Positions 13,474 through 20,342 of a stretch of DNA of 32,000 nucleotides are shown here, piece by piece. Source of the stretch: Candidatus Heimdallarchaeota archaeon B3_Heim (GTDB lineage: Archaea; Asgardarchaeota; Heimdallarchaeia; Hodarchaeales; Hodarchaeaceae); the NCBI GenBank assembly GCA_003144275.1, contig NJBF01000001.1:1-32000 (forward strand), in the 5' to 3' direction. The notes beneath the pieces were generated by a model. It had not been told where the DNA came from and did no database searches. It saw only the letters and a list, made by a program, of their open reading frames with translations. Made by a program: the position numbers and the translations under genes. How positions within the stretch are numbered: position 1 is the first letter of the stretch; each line of letters begins with the position of its first letter.

Positions 13474-14259
13474 TTATTTTCTTTCAAATGAAATTTCTAC
13501 GTCATTGGCCTTAAGGCTAGCTTGAACTTCCTTTTGAACATTTTTCCAAACAGTTTCAGCAGTTTTCCAATCCGCACTCTCGATAGTGCATCTATAATCA
13601 GGAGGAGAAATTACTTGCATATACAAATCTGAACCTTTATGTTTCTTCTTGAATGATTGCGTGTATTTTTTGAAGAAATTAGAAAGAACAACGGCTCCAT
13701 CTGAATCATAGCAAGTAACTGATATTTTTCCAAGTAATCGAACTGTAGGAGGTTGTAATTCCTTAACAGCTAGATCATAGAGGACACTCGCAACCTTTTC
13801 AGGAATATCGATCTTGGTCAATATTTTCACAGACTTCTCACGTAGTAGGAGTAAAGCTTCGTAAATAGAGCCATAGTTAACCATCAAGATCTTTTCAACA
13901 CTTTCTGTTTCCGTTTCTGTCTTCTCACACGCAACGGTTACAATACCTCTTGCACGACTTTCCTGTTTGAGCTCCGTGAGTTTCGTACGTCGTTGAGGCT
14001 CAGACACTCTCCGAATAGACATATCTATTTCTCCCCGTGCAGAGTCTATCCTCAGTATCTTAGCTACAACTCTCTGCCCTTCACGAACCTGACTTCGGAT
14101 ATTCCTAACCCATGTACGGCTAAGCTCTGAAATGTGTACAAATCCTGCTTCAGCTCCAAGGCCTTCATAATCAAAGATCTCAAAATATGCTCCATGAGGA
14201 GTAACCTTTGAGCATGATCCAACTACCAATTCTCCAACAGCAGGAAATTTAGATTCCAT
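13474..14259 (-). CDS. eif2a: Translation initiation factor 2 subunit alpha (aIF2alpha)
   Basis: FPAVGELVVG, S1 domain with GFVHISELSRTWVRNIR, IDMSIRRVS, and ISPPDYR. Confidence 0.96.
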   Translation of the reverse strand: MESKFPAVGELVVGSCSKVTPHGAYFEIFDYEGLGAEAGFVHISELSRTWVRNIRSQVREGQRVVAKILRIDSARGEIDMSIRRVSEPQRRTKLTELKQESRARGIVTVACEKTETETESVEKILMVNYGSIYEALLLLREKSVKILTKIDIPEKVASVLYDLAVKELQPPTVRLLGKISVTCYDSDGAVVLSNFFKKYTQSFKKKHKGSDLYMQVISPPDYRCTIESADWKTAETVWKNVQKEVQASLKANDVEISFERK

Positions 14260-14484: not shown

Positions 14485-15090
14485 TTACCCATCAGGGGTT
14501 TCTATTAAACGAGCAACTCCACGTGCCACCAAAGCAGTTGCATTTTCTAAGGGAACTTGTACGATGTCGTTCTTTTCTAGTGGTCCGTAAGATACATCAT
14601 CCAAACCTATGAACGCTTCAACATTAGAGAGCATTCTAATAATTGAATATTCTAACATAGTAGTTTTTTTTTCACTAATCTCCTGAAAGGGGTCTAGGAC
14701 TACTGTAGAATTTTCAAATTGGTCTATTTCGGGTGAAACTCTTGGAGTATCTAAAATGTTTGGTTTCTCAACGCCAATCGTTTCAATCGAGAGTCGCAGA
14801 TTATTCGCTATTCTACGCTCTCCCCAAGTTAAGCCGCTTTCATCAAAAAAAGTATGATTAATAACCAGATTTACTATCTTGATTAGTCTTAAGTGCACTA
14901 AATCTTTCCTGAGAAATATGATCCGATCTAAAACGGCATTAGCCAGAGTCGTATTTGCTAATTGTTGAACATCTTCTGATAATTTTGCCAGTAAACCATC
15001 GAGGGAAATATACAAATCCTTGGGAATGTTACAAAGCGAAGAATTCAACTTCTCATTTTTCCATAACAGAATTAAATCATTGTAGTCCAA
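14485..15090 (-). CDS. GINS subunit (Gins15/Gins51-type)
   Basis: Helical A domain (EK...SLCNIPKDLY...R...I+), LTWGERRI, and C-terminal B domain IRML..V..FIGLD..SYGPLEKNDIVQVPLENATALV.RG.A; conserved neighbourhood with rps27e/aIF2alpha. Confidence 0.88.
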   Translation of the reverse strand: MDYNDLILLWKNEKLNSSLCNIPKDLYISLDGLLAKLSEDVQQLANTTLANAVLDRIIFLRKDLVHLRLIKIVNLVINHTFFDESGLTWGERRIANNLRLSIETIGVEKPNILDTPRVSPEIDQFENSTVVLDPFQEISEKKTTMLEYSIIRMLSNVEAFIGLDDVSYGPLEKNDIVQVPLENATALVARGVARLIETPDG

Positions 15091-15317
15091 AAAATCTCCT
15101 CTAAGGAATGCCTACCTTTTCACGAAAGATTCATGCTTCATAATCCCTTATAAGTAAAAATTATCAATAGGTAAAAAATCTAGTGTGTGAAATATCTATT
15201 TGGCTAATCTCCGATTGACTTAATAATGCGATTCAAGAGAAAGGAAATTAAATTTTACGTATTTCCAGTTTCAGTGCATTTTGGCACAAAAATTGGGAAA
15301 TACCAATCAAAAGATGA

Positions 15318-15484
15318 AGCCACTGGTGGGAATTTCAAATAATATTCCGAGAAATACTATTTTTTGAACCCACGACATCCTCCTGTTTGTTTCTCATCAG
15401 AATAAACTGGGAGTAATACCAAGGAGGCGCTATAACCGTGCTTTGCCGAGATGATCGAAAGAAAATCTCATAAGCCACAGTGGC
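15318..15484 (-). tRNA. trnT: tRNA-Thr(GGU) interrupted by three introns (14/15, 37/38, 59/60); CCA not encoded
   Basis: Exons 15484-15471, 15441-15417, 15384-15363 and 15331-15318 splice to the 75-nt sequence GCCACTGTGGCTTAGCACGGTTATAGCGCCTCCTTGGTAAGGAGGATGTCGTGGGTTCAAATCCCACCAGTGGCT. Acceptor GCCACTG/CAGTGGC, anticodon stem CCTCC/GGAGG and T stem GTGGG/CCCAC are all perfectly paired; discriminator is U73. Confidence 0.92.
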
Positions 15485-15832
15485 AATTTAGTCTTCTGAT
15501 TACTCTGGATTTAATTTATCCAGAATTCTATTAAAACTCCCCTGATGAGTATTTTAGAATGTTTTTACTTATGTCGTAAGAAACCCAAATGACATTAACT
15601 CACTCAAACAATAGAAATTTCTTTCAATATACTGAACGAAGAGAAAAAACACCTGCTACAATGAAATCGGTTTGGATCAGACTGCGATATAGGAAAATCA
15701 TTTTGAAATATTCAATTTTCAATTGAACTTTAGGTGTAAAAACAAAAAGGAAGATTTAAGATACTGAAATCGCGGTTTCAAGATAGAACAGAGTTCTTGA
15801 TATGAAGAATGTGTTTTTCTAGTATGAACTGA

Positions 15833-16678
15833 ATGGCTGGTACACTGACAATGCTGGAATCATCACTGACCCTAATTCTCTTCTCAATCGCATTCCTTCT
15901 ATTATTTCTGGGAGCCTATCAAGATTGGAAAACACGAGAAATAGTGGATTGGATTTGGATAGCTATGATTAGTAGTGGATGCATATTACATATTCTACAA
16001 ATTATTTTATTACTGATGAACAACTTAGATATCCAATCTTATCTTTTTAAGTGGTTATATAACATTTTTATTGCTTTAATTTTAGCTGCCTTTCTTACTT
16101 TTTCTGGATTGGGAGGAGAGGCTGATAGAATTGCTTTTATTGCTATATCTTTCGTTTCACCTGTTCAGCAACCACTATTCTCCATCACAGATCCAAAATA
16201 TGATATCATCTTTTCCATCACTCCTAAAATTTTAGGAACATTCTTCAACGCATATTTACTGGCCATAACAGTTCCAATCGCCCTCTTATGCTACAATCTA
16301 ATACGAAGAAACACAATTAGAGAATTTTATACAATATCAAACCAATCTTTCCGAGTTAAGATAGTATTATATTTCATAGGTTACCCTCGAAGTACTCAGC
16401 GTATTTCGGAGGAGATAGATAAAAAACCGTGGCATTTTGATTTCTTAGAGACTTATGATGACGTAGCTGGGTGGAAGTATATTTTCCAAATGCGCCTTGA
16501 AACTCCAGAAGCTGATCTTTCTAGAAAAAAGGAGATTGCCAAAAAAACTCAGATTCATAACAAAGAGTCAATATGGATTCAACCCTCCTTACCCTTCATT
16601 GTATTCTTACTATTAGGCTTCTTATTAGAGATACTACTAGGTAATGTCATTTTTGTCCTTACAGCATATTTTGCATAA
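15833..16678 (+). CDS. A24-family prepilin/prearchaellin peptidase (FlaK/PibD-like)
   Basis: Polytopic membrane protein with both catalytic Asp motifs (AYQDWKTREIVD and GLGGEAD) and a C-terminal WIQPSLPFIVFL typical of the archaeal A24 C-domain. Confidence 0.9.
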   Translation: MAGTLTMLESSLTLILFSIAFLLLFLGAYQDWKTREIVDWIWIAMISSGCILHILQIILLLMNNLDIQSYLFKWLYNIFIALILAAFLTFSGLGGEADRIAFIAISFVSPVQQPLFSITDPKYDIIFSITPKILGTFFNAYLLAITVPIALLCYNLIRRNTIREFYTISNQSFRVKIVLYFIGYPRSTQRISEEIDKKPWHFDFLETYDDVAGWKYIFQMRLETPEADLSRKKEIAKKTQIHNKESIWIQPSLPFIVFLLLGFLLEILLGNVIFVLTAYFA

Positions 16679-16899: not shown

Positions 16900-17424
16900 T
16901 TGGAAAAAGACAACCAGGAGATTGCTAGCTTGATAGATCCACGAAGGTTTGACAGTGTACTCAGTAAAATCATAAAAAGTGAACCCGGTATCCGAAAAAT
17001 TATTCTAGTCGACCGGACTGGTCTTACGATTGCTCACGTTTCCAAGTTTAGTTATGTATCTGTTGATGTTGATGGTATTGGAGCAATTGCTTCAGCTGTA
17101 TTTATGGCATCAGCAGAACAAGGATCTAATCTGACAATTGGCGGATTGGATATTGTCACTTCAGAATTCGATACTGGTAAAATATTCGCGAGCGCTTGTG
17201 GCCGGGGGATTTTGACAATAATCTCAGATGCTGAGGTTAATATCGGAATGATCCGCTTACTCATGAGAAAGGCTAATGAGGAACTTAGCTCAATCCTTGA
17301 TGAGTTTTTAGCTGGACAACCATCTCGAACCTTCTCAGGAATTGACTCCAAAGCACCTGAAGTTCGTACTGGACTTGAGAAAGATGAACTTGAAGCCGCG
17401 CTACGAGAGCTTGAAAAATTCTAA
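16900..17424 (+). CDS. Roadblock/LC7 (MglB-like) protein with C-terminal extension
   Basis: IILVDRTGLTIAH, DGIGAIASAVFMA, GRGILTIISD..VNIGMIRLLMRKA. Confidence 0.9.
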   Translation: MEKDNQEIASLIDPRRFDSVLSKIIKSEPGIRKIILVDRTGLTIAHVSKFSYVSVDVDGIGAIASAVFMASAEQGSNLTIGGLDIVTSEFDTGKIFASACGRGILTIISDAEVNIGMIRLLMRKANEELSSILDEFLAGQPSRTFSGIDSKAPEVRTGLEKDELEAALRELEKF

Positions 17425-19888: not shown

Positions 19889-20342
19889 TTATATCTGCAA
19901 TCTTCCTCCACTCTTGCTTAGAGATGCCGCAAATCACGCTTTTACTTCGCCATTTTTGTGGAAATTCAAATAATTCATTAACCAAGTCTAATAAAAGGTT
20001 ATTATCTCCCCCTGCCTGAGCTGCTACACTTTGAGGACCAACAGCGCGAAGTTTGAGATCTCCCTCTGAAAATTCAAATAATACTCCGAGAGGAACAGAT
20101 TTCTTCTTGTCTTCTCCCCATTTTCTGCCAACAATTAATAGAAAATTCTTTGATGGAAAATCAATATCTTCACGACTGACTGTTTTCAGTAAAAGCAACC
20201 AGTGATAGTCTGTATCGAAAAAACTCGAAATTAACCTACCCTGAAATTCGGGATCCCAATCAACCAGATCCTCAACATCGGCTAATTCGATTACCTCCTC
20301 CTGACCAGCCCCTAAAGCAAAATGAACTTTCCAAATGACCAT
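19806..20342 (-). CDS. Hypothetical protein; probably the 5' part of the same frameshifted TPR gene
   Basis: Long open frame with normal protein-like composition; ends just after the A7 run inside the TPR ORF. Confidence 0.65.
   Translation of the reverse strand: MVIWKVHFALGAGQEEVIELADVEDLVDWDPEFQGRLISSFFDTDYHWLLLLKTVSREDIDFPSKNFLLIVGRKWGEDKKKSVPLGVLFEFSEGDLKLRAVGPQSVAAQAGGDNNLLLDLVNELFEFPQKWRSKSVICGISKQEWRKIADIIGEEPWRLLDAGRRILSTDPKKGKSRF

What the first reader, a model, noticed from the sequence alone, without database searches (positions are those of the whole stretch)
15318..15484. tRNA-Thr(GGU) hidden by three introns at 14/15, 37/38 and 59/60
Removing 29 nt (15470-15442), 32 nt (15416-15385) and 31 nt (15362-15332) yields a perfect 75-nt cloverleaf. 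The T-loop intron forms a strict bulge-helix-bulge: TTCA/TGAA central helix, AA|A and AT|T bulges, and a long intron stem AATAGTATT/AATATTATT. The anticodon intron is at canonical 37/38 with a relaxed BHB (3 of 4 central pairs). The D-arm intron has a GAGAT/ATCTC stem and a relaxed BHB, and its boundary could slide to 13/14. Established: triple-intron tRNAs are known mainly from Thermoproteales-type archaea, and non-canonical sites need a broad-specificity splicing endonuclease. The D-arm (GTGGCTTAG, U73) resembles eukaryotic tRNA-Thr. Standard scans can miss such genes.
Basis: partly seen in the sequence, partly recalled or inferred. Interest (0 to 1): 0.72.

Follow-up and report, generated by a model that had tools for sequence, protein, structure and literature searches.

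The report
Three-intron tRNA-Thr gene in Hodarchaeales
This is a real threonine tRNA gene of an Asgard (Hodarchaeales) archaeon, cut into four pieces by three short introns that standard tRNA finders miss; it is a clear example of a kind already published for Asgard archaea.

Summary
Observation confirmed. Removing 15470-15442, 15416-15385 and 15362-15332 (minus strand) from window 15484-15318 gives a 75-nt tRNA-Thr(GGU) that ARAGORN accepts. The unspliced locus is invisible to ARAGORN and to the Rfam tRNA model.

All 22 species of the genus carry this gene with almost invariant exons and compensatory stem changes. Each of the three inserts is missing, exactly at the predicted junction, in some species. 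It is the only Thr(GGU) gene in the assembly.

- The 59/60 intron forms a strict bulge-helix-bulge.
- The 14/15 and 37/38 introns form relaxed ones.
- The 13/14 alternative for the D-loop intron gives 0 of 4 central pairs.

The genome encodes a two-subunit splicing endonuclease. Its catalytic alpha subunit has the Crenarchaea-specific loop lysine; its beta subunit lacks the catalytic His. RtcB ligase is also present.

My census finds about 1.2 introns per tRNA gene. At least three other genes carry three or more, and five others have a 59/60 intron.

Other readers of this scan noted heavily interrupted tRNAs elsewhere in this genome. Multi-intron Asgard tRNAs, and D-arm introns missed by annotators, are already published (2024 paper, 2026 preprint). 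This is a new member of a known kind. No RNA data were found.

The parts
15318..15484 (-). Whole tRNA-Thr(GGU) gene, 167 nt: four exons and three introns. The last base, 15318, is discriminator U73. No CCA is encoded.
   Evidence: The spliced product is called tRNA-Thr(ggt) by ARAGORN. Orthologues are present in all 22 species of the genus.
15471..15484 (-). Exon 1, tRNA positions 1-14 (GCCACTGTGGCTTA): acceptor 5' strand, U8, and D-stem 5' strand up to A14.
   Evidence: Identical in 19 of the 20 orthologues aligned. The one change (T6 to C in G005) is compensated at position 67.
15442..15470 (-). Intron 1, 29 nt, D loop 14/15. Relaxed BHB: central helix GGCT/GGCA 3/4, bulges TA|T and AA|G, intron stem GAGAT/ATCTC.
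   Evidence: BHB scoring. Only 0.17% of shuffled introns reach this motif. This type is found only in the five-species clade of the window. Three species have no D-loop intron, and the rest carry an unrelated intron at 15/16.
15417..15441 (-). Exon 2, positions 15-37: D loop with G18G19, D-stem 3' strand, G26, anticodon-stem 5' strand, U33, anticodon GGT, A37.
   Evidence: This 25-nt exon has a single match in the genome.
15385..15416 (-). Intron 2, 32 nt, canonical 37/38. Relaxed BHB: TTGG/ACAA 3/4, bulges TA|T and AC|A, with the anticodon stem as outer helix.
   Evidence: The motif alone is not significant (11% of shuffles). The insert is exactly absent in G001, G016 and G010.
15363..15384 (-). 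Exon 3, positions 38-59: anticodon-stem 3' strand, variable loop ATGTC, T-stem 5' strand, T loop up to A59.
15332..15362 (-). Intron 3, 31 nt, T loop 59/60. Strict hBHBh': TTCA/TGAA 4/4, bulges AA|A and AT|T, 10-bp intron stem, with the T stem as outer helix.
   Evidence: Only 0.04% of shuffles reach this motif. The insert is exactly absent in 10 species. The intron stem is kept through sequence change across species.
15318..15331 (-). Exon 4, positions 60-73: T60, T-stem 3' strand, acceptor 3' strand, U73.
   Evidence: T-stem changes are compensated across the intron (GCGCG/CGCGC, GCGAG/CTCGC, GGGGG/CCCCC, GAGGG/CCCTC).
15528..15540 (-). Putative promoter (inferred): the block GGAGTTTTAATAG, a purine-rich stretch followed by a TATA-like box, 44-56 nt upstream of tRNA position 1.
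   Evidence: It is the only upstream block conserved in all five close orthologues, while the flanks diverge (upstream strings). Its promoter function is an inference and was not tested.
15309..15312 (-). T run (TTTT) 6-9 nt after the discriminator; a second run TTTTT lies at 15288-15292. Possible archaeal oligo-T terminator (inferred).
   Evidence: Read directly from the sequence. Not tested.

Best explanation
Window 15484-15318 (minus strand) is the functional, single-copy tRNA-Thr(GGU) gene of a Hodarchaeales (Heimdallarchaeia, Asgard) archaeon. It is interrupted by three protein-spliced introns at 14/15 (29 nt), 37/38 (32 nt) and 59/60 (31 nt).

Inferred pathway:
1. The 167-nt region is transcribed with a short leader.
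2. Each intron pairs with the adjacent exon bases to form a bulge-helix-bulge. The T-loop one is strict; the D-loop and anticodon-loop ones are relaxed.
3. The genome's two-subunit (alpha-beta)2-type splicing endonuclease cuts after the second base of each 3-nt bulge.
4. RtcB joins the exons.
5. The ends are trimmed and CCA is added.

The product is the only tRNA that reads ACC and ACU.

What is shown: the gene, its exon and intron boundaries, the motifs, and the presence of the enzymes. What is inferred: transcription, cleavage at these sites, and the order of splicing.
For: 1. The spliced product is a full-length tRNA-Thr(ggt) by ARAGORN.

2. Orthologues exist in all 22 species of the genus, with near-invariant exons. 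All 20 spliced sequences tested are called Thr(ggt); the G010 and G021 copies were read by eye. Compensatory changes occur in the T stem (four variants) and the acceptor stem.

3. Each intron is precisely absent in some species:
- the D-loop intron in G017, G002 and G005
- 37/38 in G001, G016 and G010
- 59/60 in 10 species
No species has an intron-less gene.

4. The one-intron orthologues are recognised by the Rfam tRNA model (52.5 and 35.9 bits). The window's copy is not.

5. BHB motifs sit at the exact boundaries. 59/60 is strict (0.04% of shuffles reach it). 14/15 is relaxed with a 5-bp stem (0.17% of shuffles). Intron stems are kept through covariation.

6. This is the only Thr(GGU) gene in the assembly. 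It shares the D arm GTGGCTTAG, G1-C72 and U73 with the genome's Thr(UGU) and Thr(CGU).

7. All 12 variant observations in two related DNA contigs fall in the introns. These contigs are not independent of point 2.

8. The enzymes are present:
- EndA alpha, 182 aa, is closest to the crenarchaeal catalytic subunits. The catalytic Tyr, His and Lys motifs are conserved in the ungapped alignment. Lys39 aligns with A. pernix K44 of the Crenarchaea-specific loop. K44 is required for D-loop intron cleavage (PMC3241643).
- EndA beta, 215 aa, has the catalytic His replaced by Ala.
- RtcB is present.

9. The same site types recur in other essential tRNAs of this genome. 59/60 occurs in Pro, Gly, Asp, Glu and Phe. 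A 29-nt 14/15 intron with identical exon flanks occurs in Met(CAU).
Against: There is no RNA evidence for the precursor, the intermediates or the mature tRNA.

Two of the three BHBs are relaxed. 37/38 is not better than shuffles on motif alone, and 14/15 has no outer exon helix. Cleavage there rests on analogy with crenarchaeal EndA.

The assembly is 94% complete, so a second Thr(GGU) copy cannot be fully excluded.

The 14/15 versus 13/14 choice rests on motif quality and on analogy with tRNA-Met, not on an observed junction.
Confidence: 0.93

Rival explanations
1. A decayed or pseudogene copy of tRNA-Thr(GGU), disrupted by insertions and no longer producing a tRNA.
For: Standard finders do not see it. 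Decayed copies do exist in the genus: G012 has a truncated second copy about 1 kb upstream of its intact gene, with exon substitutions and no 3' half.
Against: - The exons are 100% identical across the five closest species, while the introns and flanks diverge.
- Compensatory stem changes occur across the genus.
- It is the only Thr(GGU) gene in this assembly.
- Every congener has only interrupted copies.
- The real pseudogene in G012 looks quite different.
Confidence: 0.02
2. A real, spliced gene, but the D-loop intron is cut at 13/14 rather than 14/15. Both boundaries give the same mature sequence.
For: The last exon base and the last intron base are both A, so the boundary can slide by one.
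Against: At 13/14 the central helix has 0/4 pairs and no intron stem is in register. At 14/15 it has 3/4 pairs plus a 5-bp stem. tRNA-Met(CAU) has the same 29-nt architecture and the same flanks. Its boundary cannot slide and is 14/15, given the intron-less G005 orthologue.
Confidence: 0.07
3. One or more inserts are not removed by EndA. They are either retained in the tRNA as expansions or removed by another mechanism.
For: The 37/38 and 14/15 motifs are relaxed. The preprint notes that relaxed motifs arise often by chance, and that some D-arm insertions may not be introns (10.64898/2026.10.13.758758).
Against: - A 29-nt insert between A14 and G15, or a 31-nt insert in the T loop, would break the D-loop/T-loop core.
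- The inserts are dispensable in congeners that have identical exons.
- The intron stems and the bases that pair with the exon are conserved or covary.
- At 29-32 nt the inserts are too short for group I or group II introns.
- The alpha subunit has the loop lysine needed for D-loop introns (PMC3241643).
Confidence: 0.03

Closest known systems
Multi-intron tRNA genes of Asgard archaea (Atabeyarchaeia and Freyarchaeia: Valentin-Alvarado et al. 2024, PMC11291895; census preprint 10.64898/2026.10.13.758758)
   Same: Asgard host. Several short introns per tRNA gene, many at non-canonical sites. T-arm introns have strict BHBs. D-arm introns have weaker motifs and are missed by annotators. Introns are gained and lost repeatedly between close relatives.
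   Different: This is a Hodarchaeales (Heimdallarchaeia) genome, not one of the three heavily interrupted focal families. My census gives about 1.2 introns per gene, against 2.2 in those families, so a three-intron gene is in the upper tail here. Whether this genus was in the preprint's panel could not be checked.
Thermoproteales multi-intron tRNAs (Pyrobaculum and relatives; Sugahara et al. 2008, as cited in PMC11291895)
   Same: Up to three BHB introns per gene, including sites such as 59/60, and dependence on the (alpha-beta)2 endonuclease with the Crenarchaea-specific loop.
   Different: A different phylum and a mesophilic, AT-rich genome. The specific intron positions recalled for Thermoproteales come from memory and were not checked here.
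Aeropyrum pernix pre-tRNA-Thr(UGU), with a D-loop intron cleaved by APE-EndA (Hirata et al. 2011, PMC3241643)
   Same: A tRNA-Thr with a D-loop intron. The enzyme is a two-subunit EndA whose alpha subunit carries the loop lysine (K44). The window genome's alpha subunit aligns without gaps over this loop, with Lys39 at that position.
   Different: The A. pernix case has one intron and is experimentally shown. Here there are three introns and no biochemistry.
Asgard (alpha-beta)2 EndA with the L1 loop (Kaneta et al. 2018, PMC5829648)
   Same: Two genes with the tRNA_int_endo domain; the L1/Crenarchaea-specific loop is present in alpha. That paper already predicted unidentified disrupted tRNA genes in Asgard genomes.
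   Different: Nothing substantive. This genome fits that description.

Membership tests
Archaeal BHB (EndA-spliced) tRNA intron | Removal restores a canonical cloverleaf with conserved tRNA bases | tested here: met
   ARAGORN calls the 75-nt product tRNA-Thr(ggt). Orthologues with fewer introns score 52.5 and 35.9 bits on Rfam RF00005.
Archaeal BHB (EndA-spliced) tRNA intron | Two 3-nt bulges on opposite strands of a 4-bp helix at the exon-intron boundaries, with flanking helices | tested here: met
   59/60 is a strict hBHBh'. 14/15 and 37/38 meet only the relaxed definition (3/4 central pairs). 14/15 has an intron helix but no exon helix; 37/38 has an exon helix and a weak intron helix.
Archaeal BHB (EndA-spliced) tRNA intron | The insert is dispensable: orthologues lack it exactly at the junction | tested here: met
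   Each of the three inserts is absent at the predicted boundary in at least three congeners.
Archaeal BHB (EndA-spliced) tRNA intron | A spliced RNA product and an excised intron are observed | not testable with these tools
   No RNA holder was listed, and two runs labelled metatranscriptomic gave no contig on the locus.
Archaeal BHB (EndA-spliced) tRNA intron | Splicing endonuclease and RtcB ligase are encoded in the genome | tested here: met
   PF01974 hits at C57:43378-43632 and C57:84671-84931. RtcB scores 559.8 bits at C53:11142-12452.
(alpha-beta)2 EndA with Crenarchaea-specific (L1) loop, broad specificity | A catalytic alpha subunit with the Tyr/His/Lys triad and the loop lysine, plus a separate non-catalytic beta subunit | tested here: met
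   Alpha gives 8.5e-43 to A. pernix 3p1z_B, ungapped over the loop, with Lys39 at the position of K44. In beta, the residue aligned to M. jannaschii His125 is Ala. Both subunits have the N- and C-terminal EndA domains.
(alpha-beta)2 EndA with Crenarchaea-specific (L1) loop, broad specificity | Heterotetramer assembly and cleavage of relaxed BHBs | not tested
   No complex prediction or biochemistry was done. This is inferred from homology (PMC3241643, PMC5829648).
tRNA-Thr | Anticodon GGU, with acceptor and discriminator features shared with the genome's other Thr tRNAs | tested here: met
   G1-C72, U73 and the D arm GTGGCTTAG are shared with Thr(UGU) at C99:5976-6048 and Thr(CGU) at C57:92923-93028. 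Aminoacylation is not testable.
Split or permuted tRNA gene | Halves encoded at separate loci, or 3' half upstream of 5' half | tested here: not met
   All four exons are collinear on one strand within 167 nt.
Group I or group II intron | A self-splicing ribozyme core of hundreds of nucleotides | tested here: not met
   The inserts are 29-32 nt, and Rfam finds no family in the window.

The most novel reading that the evidence does not exclude
Within one genus, the D loop of this single gene was invaded twice. An unrelated 28-47-nt intron sits at 15/16 in most species. A 29-nt intron sits at 14/15 only in the window's five-species clade.

The 14/15 intron may have been copied from another tRNA's intron. 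One candidate donor is the genus-wide 14/15 intron of tRNA-Met(CAU), which has identical exon flanks GTGGCTTA|GC and the same 1+5+12+5+4+2 layout. The other is the 59/60 intron of tRNA-Gly(CCC) on the same contig, which has the same length and 19/29 identical bases.

If true, this would be direct evidence for intron transfer between tRNA genes in the archaeal order thought closest to eukaryotes (from memory). The 2026 preprint calls the route of intron arrival the central open problem.
Probability: 0.15. Interest if true: 0.6.

Novelty: new member of a known kind. Interest (0 to 1): 0.3.

Why it matters
For annotation, this is the only decoder of ACC and ACU in this genome, and ARAGORN and the Rfam tRNA model both miss it. 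A genome report based on them would wrongly list tRNA-Thr(GGU) as absent.

For biology, it adds a well-documented Hodarchaeales case to the published picture of heavily interrupted Asgard tRNA genes. It also gives an unusually clean natural experiment. Across 22 congeners the exons are the same, every combination of one to three introns occurs, and two different introns occupy adjacent D-loop positions.

That series could be used to:
- test the substrate range of the Asgard (alpha-beta)2 endonuclease on strict and relaxed motifs;
- study how tRNA introns are gained and lost.

It does not change the current understanding of tRNA splicing.

Tried and rejected
- RNA evidence. No RNA holder was listed. 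The two runs labelled metatranscriptomic (X12, X20) laid no contig on the locus. Nothing can be said about expression.

- Unspliced scans. ARAGORN, with and without the anticodon-intron option, and Rfam at gathering score and at E 0.01, find nothing at the locus.

- A BLAST hit of intron 3 to window 20070-20091. It lies inside a 178-aa ORF and is a chance match, not another tRNA.

- The first census script. It failed to start and was then too slow and stopped. It was rewritten. The census depends on my BHB criteria and is a lower bound: Trp and Tyr were not recovered. Three parses were discarded as spurious or doubtful: C57:155148, C88:52383, and 'Ala AGC' at C88:36620.

- The idea that the Thr 14/15 intron was copied from tRNA-Met(CAU). 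The layout and flanks are the same, but by my hand count only 13/29 bases are identical to the same genome's Met intron (sequences). 29-30 nt is the modal intron length in this genome anyway. Not supported, not excluded.

- Similarity of intron 1 to the Gly(CCC) 59/60 intron (19/29 by hand count). It is the best genuine intron pair in the genome: score 9, with no shuffle of 300 reaching it. But it is only just above the next pairs, which score 7. Left as a lead.

- Gain and loss history. The RpoB tree needs at least 4, 2 and 6 changes for the three sites. It is one marker, unrooted, and lacks G015 and G020. G017 and G002 carry a gene type that does not fit their RpoB position. That could be recombination or mis-binned contigs, so no direction of events is claimed.

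- tRNAscan-SE and SPLITS are not available here.

Full report
**1. The observation**

Joining 15484-15471, 15441-15417, 15384-15363 and 15331-15318 gives a 75-nt sequence. ARAGORN calls it tRNA-Thr(ggt) over its full length.

The stems are GCCACTG/CAGTGGC (acceptor), CCTCC/GGAGG (anticodon) and GTGGG/CCCAC (T). The T loop is TTCAAAT. U8, A14, G18G19, U33 and U73 are in place. The D stem has three pairs plus U13.U22, so 'perfect' is slightly generous.

The exons are 56% G+C in a window of about 35%. The locus lies in an ORF-free gap between a Gins51-like gene and a prepilin-peptidase-like gene. On the unspliced DNA, ARAGORN finds nothing with or without its anticodon-intron option. Rfam finds nothing at gathering score or at E 0.01.

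**2. Organism**

Close relatives of the genome's EndA gene are titled Candidatus Hodarchaeota or Heimdallarchaeota MAGs. Related DNA is held by marine-sediment and cold-seep metagenomes. The neighbouring genes (aIF2-alpha, Gins51, Roadblock/LC7) fit an Asgard archaeon.

**3. Comparative test, the decisive evidence**

A DNA search of relatives found the locus in all 21 other species of the genus. Chaining the four exons in each locus gave the following.

- The 20 spliced sequences tested with ARAGORN are all called tRNA-Thr(ggt). The G010 and G021 copies were read by eye.
- The exons are identical in the five closest species and nearly so elsewhere.
- The T stem changes by compensatory pairs across the 59/60 insert: GCGCG/CGCGC, GCGAG/CTCGC, GGGGG/CCCCC and GAGGG/CCCTC.
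- The acceptor pair 6-67 changes from T-A to C-G in G005.

Each insert is missing, exactly at the predicted junction, in some species:

| Insert | Absent in |
|---|---|
| D-loop | G017, G002, G005 |
| 37/38 | G001, G016, G010 |
| 59/60 | ten species |

Eight species have three introns, twelve have two, two have one, and none has zero.

The Rfam tRNA model recognises the one-intron orthologues of G005 (52.5 bits) and G010 (35.9 bits). It does not recognise the window's copy.

Two related DNA contigs from metagenomes differ from the window at 12 observations inside the gene, and all 12 lie in the predicted introns. These contigs are not independent of the orthologue set.

A truncated second copy in G012, with exon substitutions and no 3' half, shows what a decayed copy looks like in this genus.

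**4. Splice motifs**

I used the standard geometry: a 4-bp central helix, 3-nt bulges and a cut after the second bulge base (as in the preprint's Methods).

| Intron | Central helix | Bulges | Intron stem | Outer exon helix | Class |
|---|---|---|---|---|---|
| 59/60 | TTCA/TGAA, 4/4 | AA\|A, AT\|T | 10 bp | T stem | strict hBHBh' |
| 14/15 | GGCT/GGCA, 3/4 | TA\|T, AA\|G | 5 bp | none | relaxed |
| 37/38 | TTGG/ACAA, 3/4 | TA\|T, AC\|A | weak | anticodon stem | relaxed |

The 13/14 alternative for the D-loop intron gives 0/4 central pairs.

Shuffling each intron reaches the observed motif in 0.04% (59/60), 0.17% (14/15) and 11% (37/38) of trials. The 37/38 intron therefore rests on its precise absence in three species rather than on its motif.

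Across species the intron stems are kept while their sequences change. For the 59/60 intron the stems are AATAG.., TTGGAA.. and TGAAA... The bases that pair with the exon stay fixed.

**5. Two different D-loop introns**

The window's five-species clade has a 29-nt intron starting with T. A cut at 15/16 would destroy the conserved G15, so this intron lies at 14/15 (or 13/14).

Most other species have an unrelated 28-47-nt intron (GTTTT...AGAGYA). For that intron only a 15/16 cut gives a good central helix (GCTT/GAGY in most species, 3/4 in two). Only a 15/16 cut restores G15 in G008 and G019.

On an RpoB tree the 14/15 type is confined to one clade with 100/100 support. The three sites need at least 4, 2 and 6 changes. 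That tree is a single unrooted marker, and two genomes fit it poorly, so I claim turnover but not its direction.

**6. Enzymes**

The genome has two tRNA_int_endo genes.

- The 182-aa protein is most like the catalytic alpha subunits of A. pernix, S. tokodaii and P. aerophilum. It aligns without gaps over the Crenarchaea-specific loop, with Lys39 at the position of A. pernix K44. The catalytic Tyr, His and Lys motifs are conserved in that alignment. In A. pernix, K44 is needed to cut a D-loop intron of pre-tRNA-Thr(UGU), and the loop confers broad specificity (PMC3241643).
- The 215-aa protein has Ala where M. jannaschii has the catalytic His125. This fits a structural beta subunit.

Asgard archaea were already reported to have this (alpha-beta)2 type with the L1 loop (PMC5829648). 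RtcB is present.

**7. Context in this genome**

Only 26 loci reach the Rfam tRNA threshold. ARAGORN's 34 calls lack many amino acids.

I wrote a search over the non-ORF fifth of the genome. It parses cloverleaves while allowing BHB-like excisions, and it accepts a parse only if ARAGORN confirms the spliced product with the same anticodon. It recovered the Thr(GGU) gene with three introns.

After discarding three doubtful parses, about 41 loci remain:

| Introns per gene | Genes |
|---|---|
| 0 | 13 |
| 1 | 16 |
| 2 | about 8 |
| 3 | Asn(GTT), Ser(TGA), Thr(GGT) |
| 4 (ambiguous parse) | Phe(GAA) |

The mean is about 1.2 introns per gene.

59/60 is the commonest non-canonical site: Pro GGG, Gly CCC, Asp GTC, Glu CTC, Phe GAA and Thr GGT. 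tRNA-Met(CAU) has a 29-nt intron at 14/15 with the same exon flanks and layout. In Met this intron is genus-wide, and its boundary cannot slide.

There is no second Thr(GGU) gene. These results agree with notes left by other readers of this scan on other pieces of the genome.

**8. What is known**

Valentin-Alvarado et al. 2024 reported that 92-95% of tRNA genes in Atabeyarchaeia and Freyarchaeia have introns. Over half have several, often at non-canonical sites (PMC11291895).

A 2026 preprint reports that tRNAscan-SE misses 30% of such inserts, mostly in the D arm. It also reports that T-arm inserts usually have canonical BHBs, that gains are repeated and recent, and that the route of arrival is unknown.

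The present gene is a textbook example of that picture in a Hodarchaeales genus. It is a new member of a known kind.

**9. What remains inferred**

Transcription, the cuts themselves and the splicing order are all inferred. A conserved GGAGTTTTAATAG block lies 44-56 nt upstream, and a T run follows the gene. No RNA data could be found.

A weak lead is that intron 1 resembles the Gly(CCC) 59/60 intron (19/29) and mirrors the Met 14/15 intron. This was examined and left open.

Noticed in passing
G000:C80:39580-39743 (minus strand; locus L063:201-364), outside the window: tRNA-Met(CAU) has a 29-nt intron at 14/15 with the same exon flanks (GTGGCTTA|..|GC) and the same stem/loop layout as the Thr intron, plus a 62-nt 37/38 intron. 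In most congeners this Met gene carries up to four inserts (14/15, about 21/22, 37/38, 59/60). G005 lacks the 14/15 one.
   Followed up: partly
G000:C57:174792-174820 (minus strand), outside the window: The 59/60 intron of tRNA-Gly(CCC) is 29 nt long and shares 19/29 bases with the Thr 14/15 intron. It is the best genuine intron-intron pair in my census, but only just above the next pairs.
   Followed up: partly
Whole genome G000 (census): About 41 tRNA loci were parsed: 13 without introns, 16 with one, about 8 with two, three with three (Asn GTT at C50:49391, Ser TGA at C88:42048, Thr GGT) and Phe GAA at C80:27790 with four (ambiguous parse). The modal intron length is 29-30 nt. 59/60 introns occur in six genes. 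Trp and Tyr were not recovered.
   Followed up: partly
G000:C10:37765-37872: A tRNA-like gene whose one-intron parse gives anticodon CTA (amber); ARAGORN labels it 'Pyl'. Another reader of this scan noted that an alternative two-intron parse gives CTG (Gln). I did not examine it further.
   Followed up: no
L008:450-590 (G012:C25, about 1 kb upstream of its intact Thr(GGU) gene): A truncated, degenerate duplicate of the Thr(GGU) gene. It still carries the 15/16 intron and a shortened 37/38 insert, has exon substitutions, and has no T-arm 3' half or acceptor 3' strand. It is a pseudogene copy.
   Followed up: partly
L010 (G017) and L013 (G002): These two species carry a Thr(GGU) gene type (no D-loop intron, 59/60 present, T stem GCGCG) unlike that of their nearest RpoB relatives. 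This suggests recombination or replacement of the locus, or mis-binned contigs.
   Followed up: no
window 13474-14259, 14485-15090, 15833-16678, 16900-17424: The neighbouring genes are aIF2-alpha (S1 + EIF_2_alpha), a Gins51-like protein, an archaeal type IV prepilin peptidase, and a Roadblock/LC7-MAPKK1_Int protein. The last is a eukaryote-like signature family typical of Asgard genomes (from memory).
   Followed up: no
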